Positions 1,224 to 37,000 are shown, counted from the first letter of the stretch. The stretch: 64,000 nt of DNA from Candidatus Babeliales bacterium (GCA_020054235.1 JAGVLQ010000025.1:922-64921); one strand, 5' to 3'. Made by a program: numbers and translations. The notes: a model not told the origin generated them from the letters alone.

Positions 1224-1721
1224 CTAATATCGATACGAATATGGTGGATTTAAAATAAGATCTCCATACAATATAGCCGCACCAACAAAACTAAAAAACG
1301 TTACAATAAGCCCTCCAGAAGCGCGCTGGCTTGTTTTAAAGATTTCAGGAGCCACATCCATATATTTATTCCAATTGGTAGAAATAACATGAAGATCATC
1401 AAGGTTCGGATAATCCGGTAAAATTAAACGCCAATTTTTAACGGTAGAATGAACAGTATACGTTCCATAGTAATTACTATGATAATCGGTAGTCTCCTTT
1501 ATTTGTCCACCGCGACTTTTTATTTTTCTTTCAGACTCGTCCTTGATAGCCTGCAGATTTTGAATCTTCTCTATAATTTTTGAAAGAAAAATTGTACTAA
1601 AAGTGCCAAACAAAGTTAGCCCCGAAGCAACCAAAAATTGGACTCCCGGTTCAGGCATTATTTGTGCATTTGAATGATTTACATTCAACAAAAAAAGTAA
1701 CAATAAAAATAGTTTTTTCAT
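1224..1721 (-). CDS. hypothetical secreted/membrane protein
   Basis: The track ORF begins at GTG 1742. The ATG at 1721 gives the signal-like N-terminus MKKLFLLLLFLLNVNHSNA. A second hydrophobic segment lies near the C-terminus. No recognisable family. Confidence 0.6.
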   Translation of the reverse strand: MKKLFLLLLFLLNVNHSNAQIMPEPGVQFLVASGLTLFGTFSTIFLSKIIEKIQNLQAIKDESERKIKSRGGQIKETTDYHSNYYGTYTVHSTVKNWRLILPDYPNLDDLHVISTNWNKYMDVAPEIFKTSQRASGGLIVTFFSFVGAAILYGDLILNPPYSYRY

Positions 1722-1793
1722 CTGCAAGTTTTTTATCCCCACTAAAGTAACTAAATTTTCAATTTTGTTTTGGCTATTTTAAAAAACACTGGT

Positions 1794-2714
1794 CTAATAA
1801 AAATCAGATATACCTAGACCTACGGTATAGTTTTCTTTTCTCGATGCGATAAGCTTCTTTTTTTCTTCTGCACGCACTGATAAATAGTAATTAAAAAACG
1901 GTATACCGTCTGGTACATTTTTGATTTCTTGTTTTGCTTGCTCTGAAAGTTCGGCCCATGCAGGGTCATTTGCAAATTGACGAAGAATACCATATTCATC
2001 AAAAACGTAATTATAATAATAAGCAAAAATCTCATCTGCTGCACTATTGTTTAGTTCCTTAGCAATTTTTTGAGCAGTCTCAAAATTTAGCCTTTCGCAA
2101 CTTTTTATCATTGCGACAATTTCTTGATTTGTCTTATTTTCAACAACTTTTTCCATAAGCTCAATCCATAAAAAATCATGTAGGGTATAAAAACTCTGAT
2201 ACAAGCTACTTACACCCGTGTACCAGCTTTTTTGATCGACCCTATCAAGCAACCCTGCAAAGTCATGGGTTTCAATAAGCCTACCCAGCAGCTCCCACCA
2301 TTTATCAGTATGCCCGTGTCGATAATAATTAATAATAGGTTGCAATGCTTTATCGGTTGATATTGACGAACTTAAAAGCTCTCCAGTTTCATGATCAAAA
2401 AATAAAGGAGCGATCCAACATCGTATCTGAAAAATCCCATAATCAAAGGGTAAGCGCATTCCAAAAAATGCCGCAAGTGCATTAATTTTGCCCAACGGGG
2501 AAGATTCGGAAGCTAGGTTAATTACTGTTTCAATATCATGCTTGCATTGTATATCAATATTACTGCGAAACATAAAATCATGCTCATATTTCTGCATTAA
2601 CTCATGTTCATTAATTTCTGTTGATGAGAATCCATCATCATGCAATTGGCTATTGAAAGTTATCTGGCTATAAAAGCCCATAAAAAAGCACAGCAATTTG
2701 AGAAATAGTTTCAC
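1794..2714 (-). CDS. hypothetical secreted protein; stand-alone paralogue of the central domain of the 778-aa protein at 5284..7620
   Basis: GTG start at 2714 preceded by AAGGGA. Signal-like N-terminus. Long collinear similarity to the 778-aa protein, for example DPAWAELSEQAKQEIKNVPDGIPFFNYYLSVRA against DPAWAELSEQAKKEIKNVPDGIPFFNYYLSVRA. Confidence 0.75.
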   Translation of the reverse strand: MKLFLKLLCFFMGFYSQITFNSQLHDDGFSSTEINEHELMQKYEHDFMFRSNIDIQCKHDIETVINLASESSPLGKINALAAFFGMRLPFDYGIFQIRCWIAPLFFDHETGELLSSSISTDKALQPIINYYRHGHTDKWWELLGRLIETHDFAGLLDRVDQKSWYTGVSSLYQSFYTLHDFLWIELMEKVVENKTNQEIVAMIKSCERLNFETAQKIAKELNNSAADEIFAYYYNYVFDEYGILRQFANDPAWAELSEQAKQEIKNVPDGIPFFNYYLSVRAEEKKKLIASRKENYTVGLGISDFY

Positions 2715-2731
2715 TCAAATTCCCTTTTGAT

Positions 2732-3658
2732 TTAAAAATTAAAAAATATCGATTTATCACATGAGAACATTTCATCTATATTTATATCGTAGAGCCCAAT
2801 ACCTCTTTTTGCAGCCCACTTTTCAAACATTGAATTGAGAACTTGTATATCATTTTTTGTAATGATAAAACTGTAAAGAAAATGTGCGAGTTTTACGGCT
2901 GGAAATACATTGAAAATACCATATATGGTAGGAACATTTTGATAGAGGTCGATATCAGTTAAAATTTCTTTATAAAAATCTTTCAGAGATTTACAAACCA
3001 TATATTCTAATGTTTCAGTTTGACCATTCTGTTCAAGATTGGCTACTTTATTATCAAACTCATTAAACATACCCTTAATAATGTCCGTTGGATTTTGAGG
3101 ATCGCTATATAAGGTTTCAATCAGCTCAGAACTGTACATTTCTTTCATATTGCCCACTTCAAAAGCAAGGCGTGCTAAACAGTAACCGATTCTTGTGGCA
3201 GGTAAAAGAGTATTTGCAAATTTGCCAGCTTGATAGAATACGTCACCTTTAATATTTCTTGCCATACTTGTTGCCGTACTAAAAATGATATCAGTCAAGA
3301 CAAATTGATTTGCCGCTTGATAAGCATCTTGGATCAAAATTAGTTCTTCTCTATATCTCTGTTGAATGGCAAAATTTAATATTTCTTGAAGAGAATTTTG
3401 CAGCCCGCTCAGTGTTTTAATTCCCTTAATATTTTGAAAAATTACTTCAAAAGTTGGCCCTTCAAAAGTTACCTGTGTAACAAGTGGTGCATTCTTCAAT
3501 TCCTCTTGCTCTTCATTTATTAAACGCAAATATCGATCTTTAAATTCTTCAAACTCTAGATCAGTTTCACCTAAAGAATTCCCTACTTGAAAATCTAAAG
3601 CATCAGAAGCATTAAGTGCAGAAATTAAGGAAATACAAAAAAAGAAAGCAATTACCAT
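2732..3658 (-). CDS. hypothetical secreted protein (distant paralogue of 3663..4358)
   Basis: The track ORF starts at TTG 3673. The ATG at 3658 is preceded by AAGGA. Signal-like MVIAFFFCISLISALNA. Weak collinear similarity to the upstream 231-aa protein. Confidence 0.7.
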   Translation of the reverse strand: MVIAFFFCISLISALNASDALDFQVGNSLGETDLEFEEFKDRYLRLINEEQEELKNAPLVTQVTFEGPTFEVIFQNIKGIKTLSGLQNSLQEILNFAIQQRYREELILIQDAYQAANQFVLTDIIFSTATSMARNIKGDVFYQAGKFANTLLPATRIGYCLARLAFEVGNMKEMYSSELIETLYSDPQNPTDIIKGMFNEFDNKVANLEQNGQTETLEYMVCKSLKDFYKEILTDIDLYQNVPTIYGIFNVFPAVKLAHFLYSFIITKNDIQVLNSMFEKWAAKRGIGLYDINIDEMFSCDKSIFFNF

Positions 3659-3662
3659 AAAT

Positions 3663-4358
3663 TTATCCTTCAATGTTTTCTTGTGATAGAGTATTGGTAC
3701 AATTTATTTTTATTCCTTGCGCTACACTGATAGCAGGAATTACCGTGAAAGCATCAAGGGCAGGAATTATCTTTTCATATTCAACAATACTGTCTCGTGC
3801 ATTTGCAAAAAAATCGTACAAAATACTTGCTAATTTAAAGTAAAATTCGTTATTTTGTATTTTGAAATTTTCTTGAGAATCTTGTAATTCAAGCATGATA
3901 GCTCGCAATAGCTCAGATGGTTCATCACAATCGCTAACCCTATAGAAGTATTTTCCCTTCAATGCAACGACACTGCAACAAATACGATTAAGAAAATAAC
4001 ATGCCGGCCAGACACCACTCATCAAACTTTTAATTGATGAATATTTGTCAAAAAGAACTGCCTTATTAGAAAGCATTGAAAAGGCAACGTAAAGCTCCGT
4101 TAACTCTAAAGATTCTTTGATATAATCTTTTTCTAACCCTTCATTAATCAGTTTTTTTAGCTTTTTCAAGAATGATTTATGTCCGGAAAAATCTTTATAG
4201 AGACTCCCTATGAGCGCTAAACCTTGTTCATTAACATCAATGGTAAAATTTTCTGGTAATTTTGGTTTATATAGCTGGTTAGGTGCATAATTATAACTAT
4301 CGGCTATAAGAAATCCATACGAAAATAAAAGACTTAAAAAAAGATATTTTTTTTGCAT
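3663..4358 (-). CDS. hypothetical secreted protein
   Basis: ATG 4358 preceded by GAGG. Signal-like MQKKYLFLSLLFSYGFLIA. No recognisable family. Confidence 0.7.
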   Translation of the reverse strand: MQKKYLFLSLLFSYGFLIADSYNYAPNQLYKPKLPENFTIDVNEQGLALIGSLYKDFSGHKSFLKKLKKLINEGLEKDYIKESLELTELYVAFSMLSNKAVLFDKYSSIKSLMSGVWPACYFLNRICCSVVALKGKYFYRVSDCDEPSELLRAIMLELQDSQENFKIQNNEFYFKLASILYDFFANARDSIVEYEKIIPALDAFTVIPAISVAQGIKINCTNTLSQENIEG

Positions 4359-4456
4359 AAGCGGTACCTCTATGTAAAAATTGTTTCAGTAACTATATAC
4401 GATAATCTGTGAATAGACAAAGAACAAAAAGCCTAAATTTTGCGCTAGGCTGCTCA

Positions 4457-5284
4457 TTATATAATTCTAAAATCATTAATCCAAAAACCTTCAACTAATT
4501 GCAACGCAACTTCAATGTAAAAGGGCCAATCAAGCAAAAGCTCTTCATCTTCTTTGCTTACTTTTTTAAAGGGCTCCAGTGGCTTCAAACTTACACTAAA
4601 GCCATACATGCGTAACTCTATTGGATACCCTTGAGCAGTAAAATAGAGGTTTAGTGATTCTTTGGCATCGAGAGCTTTTTTTATTTCCTCAAACTCAACC
4701 TTATTTTCTTTATTGTCAGTAAATTCATACCCATGAATTAAACTATTTGTATAAAAATGCTTTAACTCATCGCCCTTTTTTAAATCTCTTAAATCAAAAT
4801 CGATCGATATAAAGCGAGATTCATCGCCTACATCAAGCACTGAATCTCGGTCATCAGAATCTCTCCGCAAAATAAAGTCAACAATGTCAAAATTTTTAAG
4901 CCACCTTAACAAGGTACGAAAATAACGAGGAAAATCTAAGTCATTTCTTTCACCAAAAGGCTTATTTAAAAACTCTTTATTCCAAAATGCAAATAATCCT
5001 GAAATGATAACGGCAGTATGATCTTTTATTGTTGATTCTTCTAAAATGAGGGCAATCATAAAAGTATCTTCAACTTTTATGTAAATTGCATTCATCTCAT
5101 CAATATTACCCTCAATTAGGTCGTATGCGGCTTTTTCTAACGAAATTGGTCTAAAATTCTCCAACCTTGAACCCTCATCAATCAAATACTGTCCATAAAA
5201 AAAATTCTGCTTTAATCCTTCAAGTAAAATTTTTTGAACAAGATTTTTTTCATATCTTTTTTTTAATATTACTTCTATTTCCAT
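4457..5284 (-). CDS. hypothetical acidic cytoplasmic protein; candidate immunity/partner of the upstream nuclease-like protein
   Basis: The in-frame ATG at 5282-5284 overlaps the upstream TGA (5284-5286) as ATGA, so it is preferred over the track start 5326. No signal peptide. Asp/Glu-rich. No recognisable family. Confidence 0.6.
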   Translation of the reverse strand: MEIEVILKKRYEKNLVQKILLEGLKQNFFYGQYLIDEGSRLENFRPISLEKAAYDLIEGNIDEMNAIYIKVEDTFMIALILEESTIKDHTAVIISGLFAFWNKEFLNKPFGERNDLDFPRYFRTLLRWLKNFDIVDFILRRDSDDRDSVLDVGDESRFISIDFDLRDLKKGDELKHFYTNSLIHGYEFTDNKENKVEFEEIKKALDAKESLNLYFTAQGYPIELRMYGFSVSLKPLEPFKKVSKEDEELLLDWPFYIEVALQLVEGFWINDFRII

Positions 5285-7620
5285 CAAGGTCCTTCTGAAA
5301 ATGAATACTTCCGATTTTTTAGCCAATTTTTAAACGCTTCAGGAATAGGTTTTTTTGATGCAAATTCAAATGTTTTATTTTTTGCAGTTGCTATTTCAAC
5401 CTGTGATGGAACTTTAGAACGACAATCACCAATTTTTTTATCATTCCATTCCATATTTTTACATTCAATAATTTTTTCGGCTGTTTCTATGTCTATATCT
5501 CTTTTGGGTTTGCCCGGCAATTGTACCTTCTCTCCAAACCTTATAACTTTTGAATTTTTTGATTCTCTCAAAGCAACTTCAACTTCGTATATTGCCCCAT
5601 TTACTGTCGACTGATGCGGGATATCTACAACACATTCCAGTAAAATTTTACTAACAGGGCCATCTTTATCTAAAAACCCTTCTACATCCTTAAATTTTTC
5701 TAGTGCTTCGATAATTATGTCTATTACTTCTTTACTAATACCCTTGGCTATGCCTTCTTTTAAAAACTCAATAACTTTTTCGCCATGGGTATCTACATCA
5801 ATATACGGTTGACCATTAACTCCTATAACCTCTGCCAACCTTTTTTTTGCTCTTTCTACATCCTCTTCTCGTCTTTGGCTCTCTTCACTTTTTTGAGGTC
5901 GCCATTTCTGTTTTTCAGGCTCAGCTGGCTTTTCTTCCGGCACATCAGGCGCTGGTTTATTTTTTTCTTGCTCTTGCGCATTTTCACTCAGTAAAGCACC
6001 CTGTATTTGCGTACCATAATTACAGCCTTGCTTCTGCTCCTGTTCTTGCGTTACTTCACAAGCTGGTGGCGTAGGAATTTCTTGTCCACCTTGTATGCAA
6101 ACGCCCTTTTGTTCAAATTCTTCAACGTCAACTATGCATTGCCCTTTTGGCACTTCAGGTTCTTTAATCAAACCGGTGCCACAGGGACGGTTTTTTTGTT
6201 CTTCTGCAATTTTTTGTCGCTCTTGGGCCCGCACTGATAAATAGTAATTAAAAAACGGTATGCCGTCTGGCACATTTTTTATTTCTTTTTTTGCTTGCTC
6301 AGAAAGCTCAGCCCACGCAGGGTCGCTTGCAAGTTCACGCCGGATACCATACGCATCAAACTTTTGGTTATAAAAATACGCAAAAATTTCATCTGCTACA
6401 GCGCTCTTTGCATCTCTTGCAATTCTGTTGGCTGTCTGAAAATTCTGCGCAAGGCAGCTTTCTATCACGGCCATTATTTTTTGGTTAGTAGCGTTATCGA
6501 TAACTTTGCTCGTTAGATGTGTCCATAAAAAATCACGGGCGACGTAAAATGCACGATACAAGGCATTAACTGTCTTATACCACCCTTGCTCATCAGCCAT
6601 ATCAAGTAACAAAGCAAACTCGTCAAGATCTAAATATTTGCCTAACTCCTCTCGCCATGCATCCCCATATTCTTGACGAAAATATTCAACAATCGGTCGC
6701 AAAGCTTTTACGGTAGAAATGGGCTCATTGGAAATCGCTCCTGTTCCATGATCAAAAAATAATGGTGCAAGCCAATACCGAATCTGATAAAGCCCACGAT
6801 TAAATTGCGCTGGTGCCCGTGTTGCAAAAAAAGTTTTAAGGGCACAGATTTTTCCTAGTGTAGCTGACTTGGCCACTGCATTTATAAGCGTGCGCATTTC
6901 CTCTTTGCACTGGCGGTCAATATCAACACGAAACTCTGGGTCATGGTCATAACGGTACTGCAAACGATGCTCGAGCAGTTCTTGCTCGGTTGCTCGGCGG
7001 TCAGGAAATGAATTTTTAAAACCTACTTGCGCGTAGACACGATGATTGCCAAGATTACATTCAGCCCGCGCAAAGCCTGGTCCGTTAATTATCTTGATTG
7101 TTTGCGGATTCGAAAATGCTGAAGCATCTAAGTAAACATCGGCAATGAGCGCAACGCCAGCTTCAAAAGGATTAGGAATTTCCACCTGTGCAACCTTTTT
7201 TTGTTCCGGTGTAAGTGGCGCACCAAGCTGTTGTTGCATAGATTGTTCAACTAAATCAGGAATACTAAAATTTTTGAAGGTATATGTTTCTGGTTGAGCT
7301 TGCGGTCTGCTTGCGCTGGGGGGGGTTACACTATGTTGTGCTGGATCATTTGGCATTGCTTGCACAGCAGAAATTTGCACGCAAGGCTTAGTTTCTTGGT
7401 TATGGACAGCTGGCTGGTAATGCCATTTTTCAATCTGCTTTTTTGCAACATATGCTGCAGCACCTGCAAACGCTAAAGCGGCTTGAGCACTCAAAACTAC
7501 TTGCTGCATAACCGGCGCTGCAACCGCCATTGATTCAATTTTGCGCTGAGATATAAAATCATTGAATAAAAATGCTATAAGAAAAACTAAAAAAAATCGC
7601 TTATGCTTTCTAAACTTCAT
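5284..7620 (-). CDS. large secreted multidomain protein with C-terminal PD-(D/E)xK nuclease-like module (candidate toxin/effector)
   Basis: The ATG at 7620 gives MKFRKHKRFFLVFLIAFLF; the track start 7644 is TTG. The central domain is shared with 1794..2714. A Cys-containing and PEK-rich linker follows. The C-terminus reads GAIYEVEVAL..VIRFGEKV..KRDIDIETAEKIIECKN, which places E, D and E-x-K in the canonical order. The coding call is strong; the nuclease call is moderate. Confidence 0.55.
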   Translation of the reverse strand: MKFRKHKRFFLVFLIAFLFNDFISQRKIESMAVAAPVMQQVVLSAQAALAFAGAAAYVAKKQIEKWHYQPAVHNQETKPCVQISAVQAMPNDPAQHSVTPPSASRPQAQPETYTFKNFSIPDLVEQSMQQQLGAPLTPEQKKVAQVEIPNPFEAGVALIADVYLDASAFSNPQTIKIINGPGFARAECNLGNHRVYAQVGFKNSFPDRRATEQELLEHRLQYRYDHDPEFRVDIDRQCKEEMRTLINAVAKSATLGKICALKTFFATRAPAQFNRGLYQIRYWLAPLFFDHGTGAISNEPISTVKALRPIVEYFRQEYGDAWREELGKYLDLDEFALLLDMADEQGWYKTVNALYRAFYVARDFLWTHLTSKVIDNATNQKIMAVIESCLAQNFQTANRIARDAKSAVADEIFAYFYNQKFDAYGIRRELASDPAWAELSEQAKKEIKNVPDGIPFFNYYLSVRAQERQKIAEEQKNRPCGTGLIKEPEVPKGQCIVDVEEFEQKGVCIQGGQEIPTPPACEVTQEQEQKQGCNYGTQIQGALLSENAQEQEKNKPAPDVPEEKPAEPEKQKWRPQKSEESQRREEDVERAKKRLAEVIGVNGQPYIDVDTHGEKVIEFLKEGIAKGISKEVIDIIIEALEKFKDVEGFLDKDGPVSKILLECVVDIPHQSTVNGAIYEVEVALRESKNSKVIRFGEKVQLPGKPKRDIDIETAEKIIECKNMEWNDKKIGDCRSKVPSQVEIATAKNKTFEFASKKPIPEAFKNWLKNRKYSFSEGP

Positions 7621-12433: not shown

Positions 12434-12463
12434 AGCCACGATTTTTTTTTCGTGGCTTTTTTT
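12434..12463 (+). terminator. rho-independent terminator after dnaJ
   Basis: Stem agccacg / cgtggct with a T-rich loop, followed by a T-run, directly after the dnaJ stop. Confidence 0.7.
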
Positions 12464-12490
12464 AGCAATTCAAAGCAAAAAGGAGTTTTT

Positions 12491-13420
12491 ATGATATTGA
12501 AGTATTCAAAATTATTATTCCTAACAACAATTATCACTGCATCAAATTACTGTTTTTGTAAAAACAACTTCCAAACTATTAATCAAATACGTTTAATCAT
12601 AAGCAAAAATGGCAACCCTTCTCAGGCGCTTAAAGAGTTGCTAGAAAAATGTGGTATTGCCCATGACAACACTTTAAAAACTATTGTAGAACAAACACAA
12701 AAAGAATTTTTACGCCCTGCCAATAAGGAGCGTTGGGAAGTTGGGTATGAAACAAAAATGAATCCTGAAACCGCAATGACCCTTTTTGATCAACTTGGGT
12801 TAATTAAAGAAGTTAAACCATCCGCGCAACAATACAATTATGCTTTTGTAATGGGCGCACTTGCACCACGGGTACGATTACGTCTCAATTATTTAGTTGA
12901 ACTTTTCAAGCAAGGCATTCAGGTTGAAAAAATTATTTTTCTTGGTGGCGCGCGTCCTTTAGAACGTGAATTAGAATCAGAAACTATTTTATGTAATCCT
13001 GATATTACCCAATTTCCAATAAATCCTGCATGGCATAAACCAAAAAAACTACCAAAAACTGAAATAGAAATGATGCACATGATTTATGAACAAATGGATT
13101 TGCCTTTAGAATTTCGAGCAATTCCTGTAGAATTCATTGATACACCAATGCAGCAGAATACAGACGGAACCATCCGACGACCTTCCACAAATGATATTAT
13201 TAAGCAGTGGTTGAAAACAAAGCCGGAATATGGATCAATTTTGCTTGTTTCAAATCAGCCTTATGTCGGCTTTCAGGATGCAACGGCCCGTTCACTCCTT
13301 TCCAAAAATTTTTCTATCGATTCGGTTGGTAGTAAAAGTACCGAACAAAAACAAAATATATATTTAGACAGCATTGCTCGTTGGTTATATCAAGAGCACA
13401 TTGCAGCAAATGCTGGTTAA
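12491..13420 (+). CDS. hypothetical secreted protein, tandem paralogue A (possible DUF218/YdcF-like fold)
   Basis: The ATG at 12491 follows AAAGGAG. The track start 12452 lies inside the dnaJ terminator. Signal-like N-terminus. Shares WLRP.NKER, NQP(Y/F)VG(F/Y)QDA and LD(S/T)(I/L)ARWLY(Q/E) with the next gene. Confidence 0.7.
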   Translation: MILKYSKLLFLTTIITASNYCFCKNNFQTINQIRLIISKNGNPSQALKELLEKCGIAHDNTLKTIVEQTQKEFLRPANKERWEVGYETKMNPETAMTLFDQLGLIKEVKPSAQQYNYAFVMGALAPRVRLRLNYLVELFKQGIQVEKIIFLGGARPLERELESETILCNPDITQFPINPAWHKPKKLPKTEIEMMHMIYEQMDLPLEFRAIPVEFIDTPMQQNTDGTIRRPSTNDIIKQWLKTKPEYGSILLVSNQPYVGFQDATARSLLSKNFSIDSVGSKSTEQKQNIYLDSIARWLYQEHIAANAG

Positions 13421-13481
13421 TTCAAGCAATATTTTTATATACTAAAATTATTTGAGTAGTTCCAAAAAAAGGAGTTGCAGG

Positions 13482-14354
13482 ATGGGAAAGACTCAGATGT
13501 CTTGGGTATCTTTAATTATATGTCTTTGTTTTACTCTCTTAAGTTCTGAACATAAAGAACTTACAATACAAAATGTACGCACTGCTGTTATTGATAACCA
13601 AAAAAAACCATCAAAATCATTACAGCACCTTTTAAAAGAGTTAAATATTATCCATAATGATACGCTGACAGGAATAATTTTTGAAACTCAAAAAAAATGG
13701 TTACGGCCAAAAAATAAAGAACGCGGACAACTAAAAGATACGTTATTTACAAAAAAAGAATTTTGTATGCCGCTCTTTAAAAATATGGGCATGCTCGATC
13801 AAGTTCATCCTTCATTTACTGAATATGATTATGCACTCATTTTAGGGGTTGAAGTTCCATTATGGGCATACCAGCGAATATTTTTTTGTAAGCAGTTACT
13901 TGATCAAGGAAAAATTAATGTTAAACACTTGGTTATTCTTGCTTGCCAAAGACGTGTAGACCTCATATTTCCTGAATTGAAAACAGAAACTAATTTAATG
14001 AAATTCCTTTTGGAAAGAACGGGTTTACAAGAAAAAACAAAGAGCCTTCCAACGACGTTTATTAATTTACCCATGAAAAAAGAAAAAGAAAATCAAGAAA
14101 TACCACCAAGTACCCGCGACACCGTTCAACAATGGCTTGAGCAAAAGCCTAAGCCAGGAAAATGCCTTATTTTTTCCAATCAACCTTTTGTTGGCTACCA
14201 AGATGCGGTTTTGCAAGAAACTTTACCGGAAGGTTTTACCGTTGATACGGTTGGCTTAGCTCCTAAAGAAGGCGTTAATGGTTCACTCTACCTTGATACA
14301 CTTGCGCGTTGGTTATATGAAAAACAATTCGGTAACATTTCATCGAATTACTAG
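13482..14354 (+). CDS. hypothetical secreted protein, tandem paralogue B
   Basis: The ATG at 13482 follows GGAG (13471-13474). Signal-like N-terminus. Collinear similarity to 12491..13420. Confidence 0.7.
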   Translation: MGKTQMSWVSLIICLCFTLLSSEHKELTIQNVRTAVIDNQKKPSKSLQHLLKELNIIHNDTLTGIIFETQKKWLRPKNKERGQLKDTLFTKKEFCMPLFKNMGMLDQVHPSFTEYDYALILGVEVPLWAYQRIFFCKQLLDQGKINVKHLVILACQRRVDLIFPELKTETNLMKFLLERTGLQEKTKSLPTTFINLPMKKEKENQEIPPSTRDTVQQWLEQKPKPGKCLIFSNQPFVGYQDAVLQETLPEGFTVDTVGLAPKEGVNGSLYLDTLARWLYEKQFGNISSNY

Positions 14355-30457: not shown

Positions 30458-33400
30458 TTAGTTTTCTTTTACAAACTCAACCAAATCTAGTAAAGACTTA
30501 TCCGAACCAGAAGATATATCAACCACGAGCCTTGGTTTTATACCTTTTTCTTTAAGAGTATTGTTGAAAAGATTATAATCTTCAACCTTAAGTTTTGCTT
30601 GAGAGTATAAAAAAAATAATCGTGTGTAAATATCACTAATGCATAGATATATAATTTGATTTTCACATTTCTGATCTTTAACTTCTAGCTTTTTGATGAT
30701 TGGTACCATATTTTTGATAATTTCTTGGGCTTTGATACCAGAATTATCAAAAGCAATTTCATGGGCATACTTTATACATTGAGCTGTTAGATTAATTTTT
30801 TCATCCTGCGATGAACATAATTTTTGAATAAAATTGCGTAGATCAATACTCTCGTTTGACTGAGGAGATGCTGTTTGCATAAGGGTTGTTAAATAATCAA
30901 AATATGCAATCAGGACCATACCATGTTCTGTTGTTATCTTCATTGAAGATAATAACTTTACTTTTAATATTTGATCCCAAATATCTCTTCTTCGCTGCTC
31001 ATGGCAAGCTACCAACGTCTTTTCTAAATAATTTAAAGCTTCAACAGGAGACTCATCGCTCAAAATTACTGTTTTATATAAATTAGCTATCGGATGATTG
31101 ATAAGCAAATCATGTTGAAAATATTTGAGTGCATTCGGTAAATTACCGCTATAAATAGAACATTGACCCAGTTCTATAAGAGCTTCACTATTTTTTGGGT
31201 CGAATTTAAAAGCATCTGTGTAATATTTTTTTGCTTTTTTTACAAAGCGAACATCAGAATTACCACTAGCTAAACCATTTAAATATCTATGTTTCCAAAT
31301 ATTGCCTAACATTACTGCTGCTTGAGAATCGCTCTGCTTATAAGCAAGATTCAAGTACTGCATCGCTTTTTCTTCATCACGCACTATCTTTTGATAACAA
31401 GCAGGAAAAGCGGCTCCTTCCAAATAAAAATTAGCAAGATATTTTAAAATTTCTACATTTTTATTATTGGCTGCAGATTCTAAAATAGCCATTCCTTTTT
31501 TGAATGCACTATTAGGATCTATACCCGGTTTATTATCAAAATAAAATTCAGCAAAGTTTTTAATCATAGCTTCAGAACTCGGATTAAGATCTATTGATCG
31601 TTGATAAAATTTTATTCTATTTTCAACAGAAAGATTTTCTAGTTGAGCCACTGAATGATAAAGACTTGCAACCAATTCAGACCTTTTATTAGCAGTTTGA
31701 AGATCCAAGTTTGGAATTTCTAATGCATTTTTAAGCAAACGATCTATTTCATTGCAATAATCTAATAGGTCAAACTCCTTGTCAAAAAAATTCAACTCTT
31801 TTTTTGCAATCGATAAAAGCGCAAATCCAAGTACATAAGAAGCCAAATATGACCTTTTTTGATATTCTTGAATAATATTAAACATCTCTTTGATATGCGG
31901 CAAATCTGAATTTTCGAGAGTTTCTTTATTCATATGATCTTTAAACAACTGAAATATTCTAGGACTAGACCCTATAAATAGCGCACTATCCGTACTTTTT
32001 TTAAACCTTTCATATTCAAACTTAATTAGCTCTTTGGCAAAAACACTATCTTTTCTAGCAAAATCATATAACAATTCAGCAGATTCTTGCAAAAGATTTA
32101 GGATATCAAAACTGTTAGCAAAATCAGGTAGAACAAAAAACTCCTTAAAATATTTTAACGCCTTAAATATATCCTTTTCTATACCATTTCCTTTTGCCAA
32201 CAAAAGACCAAGATGACCCAGCGCATACTTATTACCAGCTTCATGTGCACGTTCAAACCATGTATATGCTTTTGTATATTCACCCATCAACTTACACGCT
32301 AAAGCAAATTCATAGCATGCCGTGGGATTATTTTTTTCAAGCTCCTCTTTTAAACTAAGCTCTATATTTTCACAATTTATGGATAAAGCTCTTTTTTCTA
32401 ATTTTGCTAACATAGATTCAGCATAAAGCGTATGACTCAGTAAAGGTTTTTCTACTTTTTTTAAAAGCTCTATGATTTCAGATTTTTTCAAAGAACAAAT
32501 AGCTTCTTTATTTAAAAAGATATTGGCAATTTCAAGAACCGCGTTGATATCATAGGGTGCAGCAGAAATCAAAAAATCAAATCCATTTTTAATATCAAAA
32601 TGCTGATGCAACAAACCATGGCCAATATGAAATTCACAACGACTCTTTGTCTCATTAGAAAATTTAGCTAAATACTTTTTAACATTTTCAAAGTCCTTTT
32701 GAACAAAATAGTATTTCACCAACTTCTTAAAAACTTCGTCTGCAAACAATGTATTGCTAAAACAGTTATCAATTTTTATCGCCTTTTCAAGGGATGATAC
32801 AGCCAACATAACTTTCTCAAGCTTTTTTTTAGAATCTTTTTGAGAAATTGAATCAGCATATACCTTAGCTGCATAAAGATATGCAATCGCAGCATTACTA
32901 TTCTTAAGTCTTTCATAATCTTGATTGTTATAAGGATTTAATCCAGCATCTCCTGCGCAGACAAAAAAGTCTGAAACCTCTTCTGGCTTATGATATTGCA
33001 ATAAAAAAGAAAAAATTGCTGGCGCCAGATCACTTTTTGGCTCATTATGCACTATTTCCTGCGCTTCTTTTTTTATATCAACATCTTTACTTCTAGCCAT
33101 CAAAAGGCAAAGCTGAATGAAAGCTTCAGGAATTTTATCATTATCTTTTTTACCAAAAATTGATTTTAATACTTTTAATCTAGCTCCTTCATGCCCCTCT
33201 TGAGCAGCTTGCCTTAAAAAAGAATGACCATTTTCTAAATCTCCATTTTCGTAAAACAGCAATGCTATTTTATAAAAAACTTCATGAATAAAATATTCAT
33301 ACCACTCAGGACCATCTACCTTTAAAGTCATTTCTTTTAATTTTTCAAATATCGGCTGATGAAAATAAAAACGTTGTTTTAACACTAGTCGTGAATAATC

Positions 33401-34072
33401 TAAACCAAGCTGCTGAGTTCTTTTAAACTCTTCTGGGCTCAAAATCTCAAAGATGGAGGAACGCTCATCACTATTTTTACATAGACGGGGAAAACGCTCC
33501 CTTTCTTTATTATATTCTTGTTGGGTTTCAACAGGTTTCTTGTAAGGATACCAGACGCTTGCCGCACATCCCTTTTGCCAGGATTTCCCTGCATTCACTA
33601 GATCATTTTCTTCATAATACATATCTCCTAAAAACTCTTTTGCTAGTGGGTGGTACGACATTTCATAATACATTTTTGCCTCACCTCTGTTACCATCGGC
33701 TTGGTATAATTCACCTAAAAGACCTTGTGCAAAAGGATGTGGATTTTGGGCTGAAGCATTATTTCTTAGCTTCTCAAGCCCTTTCTGTTTAGTTTCAGAT
33801 TTTTGAGTCAAAATATAAGCCCTTTGTAATTCATCATTTTTTGGATGGTCTGCAGCAATAATCTTGTTAAATTCTTCAAAACTCATGGAAGCATCATTAG
33901 TGAAGATTTTTTTTTTGCTTAAATCTGTTTGCGCAAAAACCGGCTTGGCCGTATTCTGCCTTAAAACCGTTTGATGGCGTGAAGATTTTTTTTTCTTTTT
34001 CTTGTTCCCTGCTTGCGTAGGAAAAACAACTAACGAAATAAAAACTGCTGCAATTGCTAATTTTTTATGCAT
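30458..34072 (-). CDS. giant secreted Sel1-like/TPR repeat protein (1204 aa)
   Basis: Signal-like N-terminus followed by GNKKKKKKSS. Clear Sel1 units, for example WFERAHEAGNKYALGHLGLLLAKGNGIEKDIFKALKYFKE. Confidence 0.8.
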   Translation of the reverse strand: MHKKLAIAAVFISLVVFPTQAGNKKKKKKSSRHQTVLRQNTAKPVFAQTDLSKKKIFTNDASMSFEEFNKIIAADHPKNDELQRAYILTQKSETKQKGLEKLRNNASAQNPHPFAQGLLGELYQADGNRGEAKMYYEMSYHPLAKEFLGDMYYEENDLVNAGKSWQKGCAASVWYPYKKPVETQQEYNKERERFPRLCKNSDERSSIFEILSPEEFKRTQQLGLDYSRLVLKQRFYFHQPIFEKLKEMTLKVDGPEWYEYFIHEVFYKIALLFYENGDLENGHSFLRQAAQEGHEGARLKVLKSIFGKKDNDKIPEAFIQLCLLMARSKDVDIKKEAQEIVHNEPKSDLAPAIFSFLLQYHKPEEVSDFFVCAGDAGLNPYNNQDYERLKNSNAAIAYLYAAKVYADSISQKDSKKKLEKVMLAVSSLEKAIKIDNCFSNTLFADEVFKKLVKYYFVQKDFENVKKYLAKFSNETKSRCEFHIGHGLLHQHFDIKNGFDFLISAAPYDINAVLEIANIFLNKEAICSLKKSEIIELLKKVEKPLLSHTLYAESMLAKLEKRALSINCENIELSLKEELEKNNPTACYEFALACKLMGEYTKAYTWFERAHEAGNKYALGHLGLLLAKGNGIEKDIFKALKYFKEFFVLPDFANSFDILNLLQESAELLYDFARKDSVFAKELIKFEYERFKKSTDSALFIGSSPRIFQLFKDHMNKETLENSDLPHIKEMFNIIQEYQKRSYLASYVLGFALLSIAKKELNFFDKEFDLLDYCNEIDRLLKNALEIPNLDLQTANKRSELVASLYHSVAQLENLSVENRIKFYQRSIDLNPSSEAMIKNFAEFYFDNKPGIDPNSAFKKGMAILESAANNKNVEILKYLANFYLEGAAFPACYQKIVRDEEKAMQYLNLAYKQSDSQAAVMLGNIWKHRYLNGLASGNSDVRFVKKAKKYYTDAFKFDPKNSEALIELGQCSIYSGNLPNALKYFQHDLLINHPIANLYKTVILSDESPVEALNYLEKTLVACHEQRRRDIWDQILKVKLLSSMKITTEHGMVLIAYFDYLTTLMQTASPQSNESIDLRNFIQKLCSSQDEKINLTAQCIKYAHEIAFDNSGIKAQEIIKNMVPIIKKLEVKDQKCENQIIYLCISDIYTRLFFLYSQAKLKVEDYNLFNNTLKEKGIKPRLVVDISSGSDKSLLDLVEFVKEN

Positions 34073-34093: not shown

Positions 34094-37000
34094 CTACTTT
34101 GTGAACGGATCTTCCTGTAAAACTAGCTTCATACCTTTTTTAGCTAGCAAATCTTCTATTGGTTTTAATAATTCTCTTACTTTTTCAGCTTCTTCAGATT
34201 TTAATTTCATCTTAAATGTAGCATTGATAATTTCGTCTAAAGCCATATAAACCGTACCATCAATTGACTGGTTATTATTTATTACACGCTGCAATATTTC
34301 TAATAATTTATTCCATGAGTTTTGCGTATACTTAATGTCTTTTTCTTTAGTGTCATACCATTCACGTAAGAGTAAAAAAGCTTCAATCTGATTATAAATC
34401 ATACTTGCTTTAAAATATTCTTTGATTACATGAAGCCTCTTTATGTCTTCTTTTCTATCAGATATCGATTTTTTACTTATTAAGGACATAACATCACTAA
34501 TGATCAGATTTAAATTTTTTTCAGTTATTAAATCTAGACACTGATTTCTTTTATTGCCTATTTTTATTAACTCCCCGATTGATTCTTTTACAAAAGTATC
34601 GGTTTTATTAGGGGTTTCTTGCCATTTTTTAAGTAAACTAAAACTGCGTGCTTGATCCTGAATACACACGTTTGGTGACTTTACAAGAATTTCTAAAATT
34701 TCATCAATCTTATTTGAAAATTCTTTCGTTATTTCTCTAGAGAAATCGACAGAATTATTATTATAATTAAGAACACCAACCAAATAACGAACGCATAACA
34801 TATGAGCTTCTTCAGAGGTTGCTTTTGTTATAAAAAATAGTGGTTTCTGCTTTGCAAAAAAGCCCCATACCATTTTATCATTACTCTGCTCTGCAAGGCT
34901 TAAAGCATTTTCAAAATATTTTAATCCTTCTTTATAATTTTGCTGACCAAATATGAGCGCAAGCTCATAAATCGCATAAATATTGTTTTGTTTCGCTAAG
35001 GTTAAAAGACCTTCCGTTAAAATTTTCCCTTTTTTTATTATATCCTTTTCACATTTAGCTTTTATGTATGCTTTGGTAAACGCAAAAAAACTGGTAGGGT
35101 CAAAAGAAAGGGCCTCAAGTTCTTGATCAAATGTTCGTAATTTTTTTGTATCGTTATCATAAAGAGAGTATAATTTGAAAAAAATCTGCTCAAATAAAAC
35201 AAACTCCGGCGAGTCTTTGATGCTTTTATTTAATACAGCAGCCTTAACATAAGGAAATGCCTTTTCATAATAGACCATTTCATCAAATGGTTCATTTAAC
35301 AATTCCTTCTTTTCTTTCGCACACCTAAAATAAAATGGCGCCAAACATACTGCAATATCCTCATTTTTTTTCTCATATTTTTTTAATTTGTTTAGCACGC
35401 TAGAATAACATTTCATCCATTCTTTGCTCTCTTTGTCAGGAAGCTTTAAAACTTGCTCTAAACCATCACCAAAGAGATTCAAAATCATATCAAAAAGTGC
35501 ATCTTGCCGATCATTTTCATACGAATAAAAAAACCAATCTATGCAAAATTGGCGCGCTACCAAGTCTCCTGATTTAGCCAGGATTTCAAATGCATCAATT
35601 ATCTTATTTATAATATATTGAGATTCAAAATCAGAAAACGAATACGGGCCTTTTACAAAAGAATATAATTTCTTTAAACCCTTTTCCATATTTTGCTCAA
35701 CGCCTTCCCCTTTATAAAGCATAAGCCCCTCCATCCCCTCAGCAAATGATGCCGGTTTGCTAGCTTTTGTAAAACATGCAAACGCATCTTTATAATTCTG
35801 AGTAAAATAATACGAAAGACCTTGTGCATACCAAGCACGATCGTTTTGTTGACCTTCCTTTAAAAGAGGCTCTATAGAGCGAACAAACTCATCAGCAGAA
35901 AATTCTCTTTGTTCCATTTTTGCTAATAAATACTGGCGAAAAAATTCAGCTTCTGGCTTATCAAAAGTTTTTTGTAAAAGGTCAGCAAGAATTTCCTTTG
36001 CATGCAATCCTGACTTTTCACAAGATTCAGTTTTTTTTAAATAAAAATCAGCTAAAAATAATGTTCCCTTTGAAGAATCCTGGATATACCTTAACCCTTT
36101 CTCAAATAATTCTTGTTTATCAACAAAATCTAAAAAATGCATGCCCAAGATATATATAAACTCTTTATTGCCGTAATCACGTGCGATAAGGCCAAACTTT
36201 TCTGACCTTTCAATATTTCCTTTGATAAAATTAAAATAAGCTTGGATAAAATAGTAATCACCTAATAATTTCTTTAGTTCTTCATCCAAATACTTAATAG
36301 CGCAACGTCCCTTTTCAACTAATTCTAAAGATTGTTCCCGTAAATCTATAATTCGTTCTTTTACTGCGCGATCTAATTTCACAAATCCTAAAAGAATTTG
36401 TGAAAATGGGTCTTTTATTTTTTCTGCCTTTTCCTCTAAATACTTATAACCACCAACATCTTCCAAAAAACGCTGCAACGACGAATTTGGTCTATTTTTT
36501 AGATTCTCAAAAAATGCCCAAAAAATATCCAGCCCTTCTTTTATACGTTTGTGCGAAAATAACAATTTTTCAATTTCGGATAGAGTTTCTAATTTGTAAT
36601 TATTAACGCAAATCTTTTTTACTTTGTTGATAGCATTAGCTATTAACTCTTCGCTCAGATTTTTACTCTTAAGCGCAATAAGGAAACAGTCCAAAGCTTT
36701 ATTTTCATCTTTTGCAACATATTTTCCCTCCAAATGCCATGTGCCCAAAAGCCATGCGGTATGACCATGTCCTTTTTCTATATTTTTATTAAGAACTTCA
36801 AGTCCTTTTGCACTATTTTTTCCTAAAATTTGATCAATACCATCGATATGTAATAAGCCATATTCCTCAGCAACTACACAATTTTTCTCTGCTAACTTTT
36901 CCATACGCTGTAGCTCATTTTTTATGAGTTCACTAAGTAGAATAATTTGCTCTTGGTCCTTTTCTTGATTTAGCATTTCAAGAATATTTGTAAAAAATTC

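What the first reader, a model, noticed from the sequence alone, without database searches (positions are those of the whole stretch)
4457..7620. Secreted multidomain protein ending in a PD-(D/E)xK nuclease-like module, translationally coupled to an acidic cytoplasmic partner (toxin-immunity-like pair)
Seen in sequence, for the 778-aa product (ATG 7620):
- A signal/anchor N-terminus.
- A domain of about 280 aa shared with the 306-aa neighbour.
- A linker with five Cys, followed by a PEK-rich stretch.
- A C-terminal region of about 150 aa containing GAIYEVEVAL ... VIRFGEKV ... KRDIDIETAEKIIECKN. This places E, D and E-x-K in the order and spacing of the Hjc/Mrr-type PD-(D/E)xK nuclease core.

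Its TGA (5284-5286) overlaps the ATG (5282-5284) of a 275-aa Asp/Glu-rich ORF that has no signal peptide.

Established knowledge: polymorphic toxins and many secreted nuclease effectors carry the toxic domain at the extreme C-terminus, with the cognate immunity gene immediately downstream.

Inference: this is a nuclease toxin or effector plus a self-protection protein. I cannot assign either the N-terminal/central domain or the partner to a named family.
Basis: partly seen in the sequence, partly recalled or inferred. Interest (0 to 1): 0.62.

Follow-up and report, generated by a model that had tools for sequence, protein, structure and literature searches.

The report
Nuclease toxin and immunity gene pair
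A two-gene operon in a probable Dependentiae (protist-parasite) genome encodes an exported multidomain protein that ends in a restriction-endonuclease-fold toxin domain, followed directly by its dedicated immunity protein. This is a new family-level example of the well-known polymorphic-toxin design, not a new kind of system.

Summary

- **Toxin gene.** The 778-aa gene (7620..5284, minus strand) has a signal-like N-terminus, a ~290-aa domain shared with the 306-aa neighbour, a five-Cys linker and a 151-aa C-terminal domain.
- **C-terminal fold.** AlphaFold models this domain at pLDDT 95.8 as an alpha-beta-beta-beta-alpha-beta restriction-endonuclease core. Its best PDB matches are PD-(D/E)xK nucleases such as Card1, Can2 and NucS.
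- **Domain family.** An exhaustive search found 182 cluster representatives. The domain is always at the extreme C-terminus, behind differing N-termini. G675, E679, D710, E719 and K721 are invariant.
- **Variable C-termini.** The only two full-length homologues share the N-terminal ~550 residues, then switch to an EndoU domain or to an unknown C-terminus.
- **Partner.** The 275-aa partner belongs to a family found directly after this toxin domain in 11 of 11 other loci. It is a fusion of two such modules (50 and 38 bits against profiles built without it). The EndoU homologue has an unrelated downstream gene.

The toxin domain scores below threshold for Pfam Tox-REase-3. The immunity and delivery modules match no known family. 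Nuclease activity, neutralisation, export route and target (rival bacteria or host) are untested.

The parts
5284..7620 (-). Toxin gene, 778 aa including the TGA stop. It is the first gene of a two-gene operon.
   Evidence: The ORF and start codon are supported by alignment with P0002. The protein is 100% identical to database protein P0001.
7546..7620 (-). Signal-peptide-like N-terminus (residues 1-25): a basic n-region followed by an 11-residue hydrophobic run.
   Evidence: Read from the sequence and from hydropathy. No dedicated signal-peptide predictor was available.
7441..7530 (-). Second hydrophobic, Ala/Val-rich stretch (residues 31-60), conserved in P0002 and P0003.
   Evidence: The Kyte-Doolittle maximum of 1.75 is at residue 41. 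Conservation is shown in alignment A1.
6169..7035 (-). Central ~290-aa domain (residues 196-484). It is a putative delivery or trafficking module and is shared with the 306-aa paralogue.
   Evidence: It is 52% identical over 290 aa to the paralogue, E = 3e-109. It also occurs at residues ~200-480 of several large toxins that carry the same C-terminal domain. It has no Pfam or PDB match.
6022..6183 (-). Five-Cys linker (C480, C495, C508, C521, C533). It is the last block conserved among homologues before the C-termini diverge.
5740..6000 (-). P/E/K/Q-rich, then helical, spacer (residues 541-627) between the linker and the toxin domain.
   Evidence: Composition is. This region has no similarity to P0002 or P0003.
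5287..5739 (-). C-terminal restriction-endonuclease-fold toxin domain (residues 628-778). The predicted catalytic residues are E679 (5584-5586), D710 (5491-5493), E719 (5464-5466) and K721 (5458-5460).
   Evidence: The family has 182 cluster representatives, always with the domain at the C-terminus. The catalytic residues are invariant. The AlphaFold model has pLDDT 95.8 and an alpha-beta-beta-beta-alpha-beta core. Foldseek matches Card1, Can2, Cdn1, NucS and AF1548. Matches to Pfam Tox-REase-3 are below threshold.
5290..5296 (-). Shine-Dalgarno-like AGAAGGA, 5 nt upstream of the partner's ATG and inside the end of the toxin gene.
4457..5284 (-). Immunity gene, 275 aa including the stop. It is acidic and cytoplasmic, and its ATG overlaps the toxin TGA by one base.
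   Evidence: Family membership is shown.
4865..5278 (-). Immunity module A (residues 3-140).
   Evidence: A profile of 12 ORFs found directly downstream of this toxin domain at other loci, with the window excluded, scores 50.0 bits (E = 1.8e-11 at Z = 1e6). BLASTP to the L007 ORF gives 29% identity over 138 aa, E = 1.6e-13.
4469..4810 (-). Immunity module B (residues 159-272), a paralogous second module.
   Evidence: A profile of 5 second ORFs or second halves at other loci scores 37.7 bits (E = 1.1e-7 at Z = 1e6). Fused A+B proteins also occur in L012, L013 and L006.
4430..4451 (-). Terminator-like hairpin followed by a T-run, immediately after the immunity stop codon. It closes the two-gene operon.
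   Evidence: Consensus scan only.
1794..2714 (-). 306-aa secreted paralogue of the central domain. It ends exactly where the toxin's Cys linker begins and has no toxin tail.

Best explanation
This is a polymorphic-toxin/immunity operon.

**The toxin protein.** The 778-aa protein is made with a Sec-type signal and is exported. Residues 1-540 are a constant 'delivery' region made of two hydrophobic segments, a ~290-aa domain of unknown fold and a five-Cys linker. This region carries an exchangeable C-terminal toxin.

**The toxin domain.** In this genome the toxin is a 151-aa metal-dependent PD-(D/E)xK nuclease with predicted catalytic residues E679, D710, E719 and K721. It would kill or arrest a cell by cutting its nucleic acid, most probably DNA.

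**The immunity protein.** The translationally coupled 275-aa acidic cytoplasmic protein is the cognate immunity protein. It is a fusion of two paralogous modules, and the first is the one found at every locus. It is inferred to bind and block the nuclease domain in the producer before export, and in sibling cells that receive the toxin.

**What is shown and what is inferred.** Shown here:
- the fold
- the invariant catalytic residues
- the C-terminal position of the domain on differing N-termini
- the swap of C-termini among close homologues
- the conserved tight linkage with the immunity family

Inferred:
- nuclease activity and substrate
- inhibition by binding
- export route
- the target

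I favour competing related bacteria that share a protist host as the target, because a dedicated immunity gene is retained. The host itself is not excluded.
For: **Fold and active site**
- The AlphaFold model of residues 628-778 has pLDDT 95.8 and pTM 0.89. E679 lies on helix alpha-1, D710 on strand beta-2, and E719 and K721 on strand beta-3.
- The top Foldseek PDB hits are all PD-(D/E)xK nucleases: Card1 6xl1 (E = 3.8e-4), VC1899, Cdn1, Can2, AF1548 and NucS.
- A profile search of PDB sequences aligns G..E / D / ECK with the Cdn1 nuclease domain.
- Nine of 30 family members give sub-threshold hits to Pfam Tox-REase-3 and to no other recurring family.

**Polymorphic architecture**
- There are 182 cluster representatives with E <= 1e-3. 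All listed hits carry the domain at the extreme C-terminus of proteins of 140-1359 aa.
- Their N-terminal regions fall into 19 similarity clusters.
- 42 of the 69 long members have a signal-like N-terminus by a crude heuristic.
- P0002 and P0003 are near-identical to each other as far as residue ~550 and then unrelated.
- P0002 ends in EndoU_bacteria PF14436 (38.5 bits against a cutoff of 25.3). The window protein shares ~54-57% identity with both over the same N-terminal region only.
- L013 carries a standalone 141-aa toxin cassette with its own immunity gene.

**Immunity**
- In 11 of 11 other loci with downstream sequence, an ORF of one family starts between -4 and +5 nt of the toxin stop.
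- Profiles built without the window hit the partner at 50.0 and 37.7 bits, and hit no other window ORF.
- The gene downstream of the EndoU homologue scores <= 4.7 bits against these profiles, so the immunity gene changes with the toxin.
- L002 has an array of several such ORFs.

**Operon**
- The stop and start overlap as TGATG with an upstream SD-like motif.
- A terminator-like hairpin follows the immunity stop.
Against: - No activity, toxicity or binding data exist.
- Foldseek E-values are modest (best 3.8e-4) and TM-scores are ~0.5-0.6, although the hits are consistent.
- The window protein and every relative tested (full proteins) score below Pfam's Tox-REase-3 threshold (the tested relatives 13-19 bits, cutoff 25). 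The named family is therefore a lead, not a membership.
- The AlphaFold model of the partner was useless (pLDDT 32), so nothing supports a toxin-partner interface.
- The signal peptide was judged by hydropathy only.
- None of the known polymorphic-toxin trafficking domains (RHS, LXG, PAAR, haemagglutinin repeats, MafB-N) was detected. How an exported protein would reach another cell's cytoplasm is therefore unknown.
- The published view of the lineage treats its secreted nucleases as host-directed (PMC6561590, PMC4378268).
Confidence: 0.8

Rival explanations
1. The protein is a host-directed effector. The nuclease is secreted into the protist host to damage or digest host nuclear or organellar DNA. 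The partner only protects the bacterium's own genome until export.
For: - Dependentiae are obligate intracellular parasites. About 44% of their proteins carry signal peptides, and their secreted nucleases are interpreted as host-directed (PMC6561590).
- Only a type II/Sec secretion route was detected in Babela (PMC4378268).
- No interbacterial delivery domain was found.
- TopA in the window is 78% identical to that of a Dependentiae MAG.
Against: - Zhang et al. 2012 (PMC3482391) note that host-directed REase effectors of endosymbionts (Tox-REase-8) lack immunity genes. Here the immunity gene is present in 11 of 11 other loci.
- Immunity arrays, an orphan cassette with its own immunity gene, and swapping of C-termini are the signatures of conflict between bacteria.
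Confidence: 0.25
2. The pair is a secreted digestive nuclease with an intracellular inhibitor, as in barnase/barstar or NucA/NuiA. Its role would be nutrient scavenging, not antagonism.
For: - The genetic layout is the same: an exported nuclease followed by an acidic cytoplasmic inhibitor gene.
- Dependentiae depend on imported nucleotides (PMC6561590).
Against: - A scavenging enzyme would not be expected to be replaced by an EndoU RNase or by an unrelated domain on the same conserved N-terminal region in sister strains.
- It would also not be expected to come with orphan cassettes and immunity arrays.
- A ~630-aa N-terminal region is not needed for a digestive enzyme.
Confidence: 0.08
3. The pair is an intracellular toxin-antitoxin or anti-phage defence module that is not exported.
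For: - The two genes are tightly coupled, and a PD-(D/E)xK effector is typical of many defence systems.
- The nearest structural neighbours are the CRISPR ancillary nucleases Card1 and Can2.
Against: - No PADLOC model matches either protein.
- The toxin is 778 aa long and has a signal-like N-terminus.
- Most long relatives also have signal-like N-termini.
- No sensor domain such as CARF is present.
Confidence: 0.04

Closest known systems
Tox-REase-3 (Pfam PF15647), a restriction-endonuclease-fold C-terminal toxin domain of polymorphic toxin systems (Zhang et al. 2012, PMC3482391)
   Same: - It is a PD-(D/E)xK fold at the extreme C-terminus of secreted multidomain proteins, with an immunity gene downstream.
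- The family consensus REFD matches the [KR]ExD signature.
- It is the only Pfam family hit repeatedly by relatives (9 of 30).
   Different: - All scores are below the Pfam cutoff (13-19 bits against 25), and the window protein itself gives no hit.
- The third motif is ECK, not ExQxK.
- The associated immunity protein is not Imm-SUKH or Imm7.
- The reported taxa are proteobacteria and firmicutes, not Dependentiae.
Nuclease colicins and pyocins with their immunity proteins (for example colicin E9/Im9). This comparison is from general knowledge.
   Same: - The toxin is a multidomain exported protein with N-terminal delivery domains and a C-terminal nuclease.
- A small acidic immunity protein is encoded immediately downstream and co-expressed.
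- Nuclease domains are exchangeable on a conserved N-terminal region.
   Different: - The nuclease fold differs: HNH in colicin E9, REase here.
- This protein has a Sec-type signal, whereas colicins have none and are released by lysis proteins.
- No translocation or receptor domain is recognisable, and no lysis gene is present.
Sec-dependent polymorphic toxins such as Neisseria MafB (the class labelled 'T2SS' in Zhang et al. 2012)
   Same: - A signal peptide is followed by a conserved N-terminal domain and a variable C-terminal toxin.
- The immunity gene lies downstream, and orphan cassettes with their own immunity genes occur.
   Different: - The N-terminal domain is unrelated, with no Pfam match.
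- A conserved five-Cys linker marks the junction.
- The lineage is obligately intracellular.
Nuclease domains of the CRISPR ancillary nucleases Card1, Can2 and Cdn1 (PDB 6xl1, 7bdv, 8bao, 8z4i)
   Same: - They are the best structural matches and share the G..E / D / E-x-K arrangement.
   Different: - They are cytoplasmic, fused to CARF sensors and activated by cyclic oligoadenylates.
- Sequence identity is 13-20%, and they have no immunity protein.
Tox-REase-8 of Wolbachia and Amoebophilus, and expanded secreted families with a PD-DExK domain in Babela massiliensis (PMC3482391; PMC4378268, Figure 5 legend)
   Same: - These are REase-fold domains on secreted proteins of intracellular bacteria that live in protists or arthropods.
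- Signal-bearing AAA+ ATPase genes lie next to the large toxins in L002-L004. AAA ATPase proteins with predicted signal peptides are also reported in Babela, in a figure of host-interaction genomic islands.
   Different: - Tox-REase-8 lacks immunity genes and is fused to ankyrin repeats.
- The Babela paper treats such proteins as host-interaction factors and does not describe a toxin-immunity pairing.
- I could not check whether the Babela PD-DExK proteins belong to this family.

Membership tests
PD-(D/E)xK (restriction-endonuclease-like) nuclease superfamily | Core alpha-beta-beta-beta-alpha-beta fold | tested here: met
   The AlphaFold model (pLDDT 95.8) has elements H43-59, E65-72, E80-86, E89-94, H100-119 and E123-128. 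The Foldseek PDB top hits are all members of this superfamily.
PD-(D/E)xK (restriction-endonuclease-like) nuclease superfamily | Acidic residue on helix alpha-1, D on strand beta-2 and (D/E)xK on strand beta-3, all conserved | tested here: met
   E679, D710, E719 and K721 are invariant in 30 aligned members and lie on the expected elements.
PD-(D/E)xK (restriction-endonuclease-like) nuclease superfamily | Metal-dependent phosphodiester cleavage | not testable with these tools
   This needs a biochemical assay.
Polymorphic toxin systems (sensu Zhang/Aravind 2012) | Close homologues share the N-terminal region but carry unrelated C-terminal toxin domains | tested here: met
   The window protein, P0002 (EndoU) and P0003 (unknown domain) diverge after the five-Cys linker.
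Polymorphic toxin systems (sensu Zhang/Aravind 2012) | The same toxin domain occurs at the C-terminus of proteins with different N-terminal regions | tested here: met
   There are 182 cluster representatives, all with the domain at the C-terminus. The N-terminal regions fall into 19 clusters.
Polymorphic toxin systems (sensu Zhang/Aravind 2012) | A cognate immunity gene lies immediately downstream and changes when the toxin domain changes | tested here: met
   One family is found in 11 of 11 other loci. The window partner scores 50.0 and 37.7 bits. The ORFs downstream of the EndoU homologue score <= 4.7 bits.
Polymorphic toxin systems (sensu Zhang/Aravind 2012) | An N-terminal secretion or trafficking determinant | tested here: inconclusive
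   The N-terminus is signal-like by hydropathy. No signal-peptide predictor was available, and no known trafficking domain was detected.
Polymorphic toxin systems (sensu Zhang/Aravind 2012) | Orphan toxin cassettes and/or immunity arrays | tested here: met
   These occur in related loci but not in the window. L013 has a standalone 141-aa cassette plus a second immunity gene. L002 has an array of downstream ORFs.
Polymorphic toxin systems (sensu Zhang/Aravind 2012) | The toxin is toxic and is neutralised by the immunity protein | not testable with these tools
   This needs expression and rescue experiments. The AlphaFold model of the partner failed.
Pfam Tox-REase-3 (PF15647) | Score at or above the Pfam gathering threshold (25 bits) | tested here: not met
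   The window domain gives no hit. Relatives score 13.5-19.1 bits.
Pfam Tox-REase-3 (PF15647) | Signature [KR]ExD, K, ExQxK (PMC3482391) | tested here: inconclusive
   The family consensus REFD fits the first motif (the window has RDID), and a conserved K precedes the third motif. The third motif itself is IECK[ND], not ExQxK.
Pfam Tox-REase-3 (PF15647) | Associated immunity families Imm-SUKH or Imm7 | tested here: not met
   None of the 13 immunity-family sequences has any recurring Pfam hit.
Type II toxin-antitoxin or anti-phage defence systems | Match to a known defence or TA protein model, with a cytoplasmic toxin | tested here: not met
   There is no PADLOC hit for either protein. The toxin is 778 aa long and has a signal-like N-terminus.

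The most novel reading that the evidence does not exclude
Dependentiae, which are obligate intracellular parasites of protists, carry a large lineage-specific polymorphic-toxin system. It is built from parts that are all undescribed at family level:
- a REase toxin family outside Pfam
- a one- or two-module immunity family
- a delivery region made of a ~290-aa domain plus a five-Cys linker, which also exists as a standalone secreted protein

In this reading the system is used for warfare between strains that co-infect the same host cell. The toxin would reach the rival's cytoplasm after Sec export by a route that no known trafficking domain explains.
Probability: 0.35. Interest if true: 0.6.

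Novelty: new member of a known kind. Interest (0 to 1): 0.42.

Why it matters
Polymorphic toxin-immunity systems are well known in free-living and host-associated bacteria. I found no paper linking them to Dependentiae. In that phylum, secreted nucleases are assumed to be aimed at the host.

A toxin domain with 182 cluster representatives and a strictly linked immunity family suggests that these reduced-genome parasites also invest in self/non-self discrimination or competition.

The finding assigns testable functions to three sets of 'hypothetical' proteins: the toxin domain, the immunity modules and the delivery domain. It also provides a compact nuclease/inhibitor pair for biochemical study. 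The conceptual advance is modest, because the design itself is textbook.

Tried and rejected
**Searches that found nothing**
- Pfam, NCBIfam and PADLOC scans of the toxin, the partner and the neighbouring genes gave no significant hit.
- PDB sequence searches of the C-terminal region, the whole-protein alignment and the immunity alignment found nothing. The only exception was a weak Cdn1 match for the toxin-domain profile.
- Genome and metagenome scans with the full-length alignment found no relative.
- The first domain alignment was too diverse to scan with.
- Exact-sequence look-ups of P0001, P0003 and the window's TopA found no contig on record.
- A word-indexed search for the partner found only the partner itself. 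The same search with the immunity alignment added only the two L013 proteins.
- Foldseek against viral structures gave nothing at E <= 1e-3.

**Structure prediction of the partner**
- A 3-row alignment gave pLDDT 32, which is too poor for a fold search.
- No complex prediction was possible.

**Ideas considered and dropped**
- *A GCGT/PCGT Cys motif as a general pre-toxin junction.* Only a few family members have it.
- *A second toxin or immunity copy in the window.* None exists.
- *The conserved sequence upstream of the 231-aa gene as a repeated genomic element.* It is single-copy in the window.

**Caveat on the immunity alignment**
In three rows of alignment A4, adjacent single-module ORFs from L002, L003 and L007 were concatenated by me. 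The profiles used for the statistics did not use concatenated rows.


Full report
**1. Observation**

The minus strand carries a 778-aa ORF (ATG 7620 to TGA 5286-5284). Its stop overlaps the ATG (5284-5282) of a 275-aa ORF, read as TGATG. An AGAAGGA motif lies 5 nt upstream of that ATG. Both shorter starts are supported by alignment with homologues.

- **N-terminus.** It is basic and then hydrophobic, with a second hydrophobic stretch at residues 41-59.
- **Shared domain.** Residues 196-484 are 52% identical (E = 3e-109) to the 306-aa neighbour at 1794..2714.
- **Linker.** Five Cys lie at 480, 495, 508, 521 and 533, followed by a P/E/K/Q-rich spacer.
- **Nuclease motifs.** GAIYEVEVAL, VIRFGEKV, KRDIDIET and KIIECKN lie between residues 675 and 722.
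- **Partner.** It is acidic (pI 4.77) and has no hydrophobic segment.

None of these proteins has a significant Pfam, NCBIfam or PADLOC match.

**2. The C-terminal domain is a restriction-endonuclease-fold domain of a large family**

An exhaustive HMMER search with residues 580-778 against 1.84 billion representatives found 182 proteins at E <= 1e-3 and 64 at E <= 1e-10. In every listed hit the ~145-aa match ends at or within a few residues of the C-terminus, in proteins of 140 to 1359 aa.

In an alignment of 30 copies, G675, E679, D710, E719, K721, W725 and W766 are invariant, and E681 is nearly so.

AlphaFold2 with this alignment gave pLDDT 95.8 and pTM 0.89. Two N-terminal helices precede an alpha-beta-beta-beta-alpha-beta core. 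E679 sits on the first core helix, D710 on the second strand, and E719 and K721 on the third.

The leading Foldseek hits against the PDB are all PD-(D/E)xK nucleases:
- Card1 (E = 3.8e-4)
- VC1899
- Cdn1
- Can2
- AF1548
- NucS
- a XisH-like protein

TM-scores normalised to the query are about 0.5-0.6. A profile search of PDB sequences gave the Cdn1 nuclease domain as its only relevant hit, with the three motifs aligned (E = 0.07).

Nine of the 30 members give weak hits to Pfam Tox-REase-3. No other family recurs. All full-length proteins tested score below the 25-bit cutoff.

The published Tox-REase-3 signature is [KR]ExD, K, ExQxK (PMC3482391). This family has REFD..K..IECK. I therefore treat it as a sister family, not a member.

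**3. The architecture is that of a polymorphic toxin**

Only two full-length homologues exist among 5.8 billion clustered proteins. All three proteins share the region up to the five-Cys linker and then diverge.

P0002 and P0003 are near-identical to each other until about residue 550 and unrelated afterwards. P0002 ends in a full-length EndoU_bacteria domain (38.5 bits against a cutoff of 25.3). P0003 ends in ~250 aa with no family match.

Conversely, the window's toxin domain sits on N-terminal regions that fall into 19 similarity clusters. By a crude heuristic, 42 of 69 long members have a signal-like start.

An iterative search restricted to these proteins showed that the window's central domain recurs at residues ~200-480 of several ~700-1070-aa toxins (P0034, P0070, P0062, P0048, P0043, P0130). 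The first link is a direct BLASTP hit to P0034 at E = 2.8e-7. The central domain is therefore a shared N-proximal module, plausibly concerned with delivery. Its function is unknown (no PDB or Pfam match).

**4. The partner is the cognate immunity protein**

Pattern scans with the toxin domain retrieved 12 loci:
- L002, from a Candidatus Dependentiae MAG
- L003 and L004, from one ~1-Mb contig of an uncultured-bacterium MAG
- L005-L013, from metagenomes

In all 11 loci that extend past the toxin gene, an ORF starts between -4 and +5 nt of the toxin stop. These ORFs align with each other. They typically begin MS.xY and end with a motif similar to IDFxxYIxxxLxLCxxFxIlEl.

A profile of 12 such ORFs, with the window excluded, hits partner residues 3-140 at 50.0 bits (E = 1.8e-11 for a nominal database of 1e6). 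A profile of five second ORFs or second halves hits residues 159-272 at 37.7 bits (E = 1.1e-7). No other ORF in the window scores.

Direct BLASTP supports this: 29% identity over 138 aa to the L007 ORF, and 25% over 298 aa to the two-module L012 protein.

The 275-aa partner is thus a fusion of two paralogous modules. L012, L013 and L006 have the same fusion. In L007, L002 and L003 the two modules are adjacent genes. L004 and L008-L011 have only the first module.

The ORFs downstream of the EndoU homologue score <= 4.7 bits against these profiles, so the downstream gene changes with the toxin domain.

L013 also has a standalone 141-aa toxin cassette followed by a second immunity gene. L002 has an array of several downstream ORFs. 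These are typical of polymorphic-toxin loci.

The immunity family has no Pfam or PDB match. Its structure could not be predicted (pLDDT 32).

**5. Operon and genomic setting**

A terminator-like hairpin (4451-4430) follows the immunity stop. A promoter-like TTGTCT-17-TATAGT follows it, ahead of the next gene. The pair therefore looks like a self-contained bicistronic unit.

The window is chromosomal. It encodes TopA, SufB, SufS, DnaJ, a TonB-like protein and BatD.

No tool named the organism. However, a TopA fragment at the end of L002 (the Dependentiae MAG) is 78% identical to the window's TopA. The low G+C content and the abundance of signal-bearing orphan genes also fit that phylum (PMC6561590).

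**6. Mechanism and rivals**

The best-supported reading is a Sec-exported polymorphic nuclease toxin plus a cytoplasmic immunity protein that blocks it by binding (confidence 0.8 for the toxin/immunity identity).

The target is unresolved. I favour related bacteria, because dedicated immunity genes, immunity arrays, orphan cassettes and C-terminal swapping are hallmarks of conflict between bacteria. Host-directed REase effectors of endosymbionts are reported to lack immunity genes (PMC3482391).

The absence of any known interbacterial delivery domain and the intracellular lifestyle keep a host-directed role alive (0.25). A scavenging nuclease with an inhibitor (0.08) and an unexported TA or defence module (0.04) fit the data poorly.

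**7. Comparison and novelty**

In function, this works like nuclease colicins and like MafB-type Sec-dependent polymorphic toxins. In structure, the toxin domain is nearest to the Card1/Can2 nuclease domains. By sequence, it is nearest to Tox-REase-3, but it fails that family's threshold.

The kind of system is well known. What is new is at family level: the toxin subfamily, the immunity family, the delivery module, and the occurrence in Dependentiae. For that phylum I found no report of polymorphic toxins. The Babela paper does mention a PD-DExK domain among its expanded secreted families (PMC4378268).

The finding is a solid but conceptually ordinary new member of a known kind.

Noticed in passing
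window 4349-4439 (minus strand); L001 1110-1175: A ~50-nt non-coding core (AGATTATCGTATATAGTTACTRAAACA.TTTTTACATA) is ~90% identical between two places. In the window it lies between the immunity gene and the 231-aa gene. In L001 it lies directly upstream of the toxin homologue P0002. The proteins are only ~54% identical. The core contains the promoter-like TTGTCT-17-TATAGT and is single-copy in the window. It may be a conserved promoter or leader, or a recombination footprint.
   Followed up: partly
window 1860-1965 and 6217-6322: These two stretches form an island of 87-96% DNA identity between the 306-aa paralogue and the toxin gene. It covers the last ~35 codons of the shared domain, just before the Cys linker. 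The rest of the shared domain is ~60-70% identical. This suggests gene conversion or a recombination handle at the constant/variable junction.
   Followed up: partly
window 1224-4358 (minus strand): Four consecutive genes with signal-like N-termini and no family match (231, 313, 306 and 172 aa) lie downstream of the toxin operon. Only the 306-aa product is related to the toxin.
   Followed up: partly
L002 1855-3180; L003 537-2150 (minus strand); L004 1376-3010 (minus strand): AAA+ ATPase genes with hydrophobic N-termini lie next to the ~1070-aa toxins that carry the same C-terminal domain. They recall the signal-bearing AAA ATPase/Ulp1-like family reported in Babela massiliensis (PMC4378268). 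The window has no counterpart next to its toxin.
   Followed up: partly
L013 2224-2649 and 2562-3485: A standalone 141-aa copy of the toxin domain has no N-terminal region. A second two-module immunity gene follows and overlaps it. This is an orphan cassette.
   Followed up: partly
L002 6422-8527: Four consecutive small ORFs (150, 128, 267 and 153 aa) follow the toxin gene. At least the first three resemble the immunity family, so this is a possible polyimmunity array.
   Followed up: partly
P0003 residues ~535-796: The third homologue ends in ~260 aa with no Pfam or NCBIfam match. This may be an undescribed toxin domain. Its genomic context could not be retrieved.
   Followed up: no
L001 3409-3792 and 3783-4025: Two small ORFs follow the EndoU-ended homologue. 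The first overlaps the toxin stop. They are candidate EndoU immunity proteins with no family match, apart from a weak Ntox17 hit (E = 0.04).
   Followed up: no
window 12452-13420 and 13452-14354 (plus strand): Two tandem paralogous genes (322 and 300 aa) have signal-like N-termini and shared motifs (NQPYVGFQDA, LDSIARWLY). Their function is unknown.
   Followed up: no
window 30458-34072 and 34094-38629 (minus strand): Two adjacent very large ORFs encode 1204 aa (no Pfam match) and 1511 aa (a single TPR match only).
   Followed up: no
P0007, P0030, P0087, P0153 (relatives of the toxin domain): Repeated GCG[TD] Cys motifs occur in the ~200 residues before the toxin domain. They recall the window's PCGTG-initiated five-Cys linker but are not general to the family.
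   Followed up: partly
window 57270-59534; L002 1-597: The window's TopA is 78% identical over 186 aa to the TopA fragment of a Candidatus Dependentiae MAG. This is the only direct clue to the window's taxon.
   Followed up: partly
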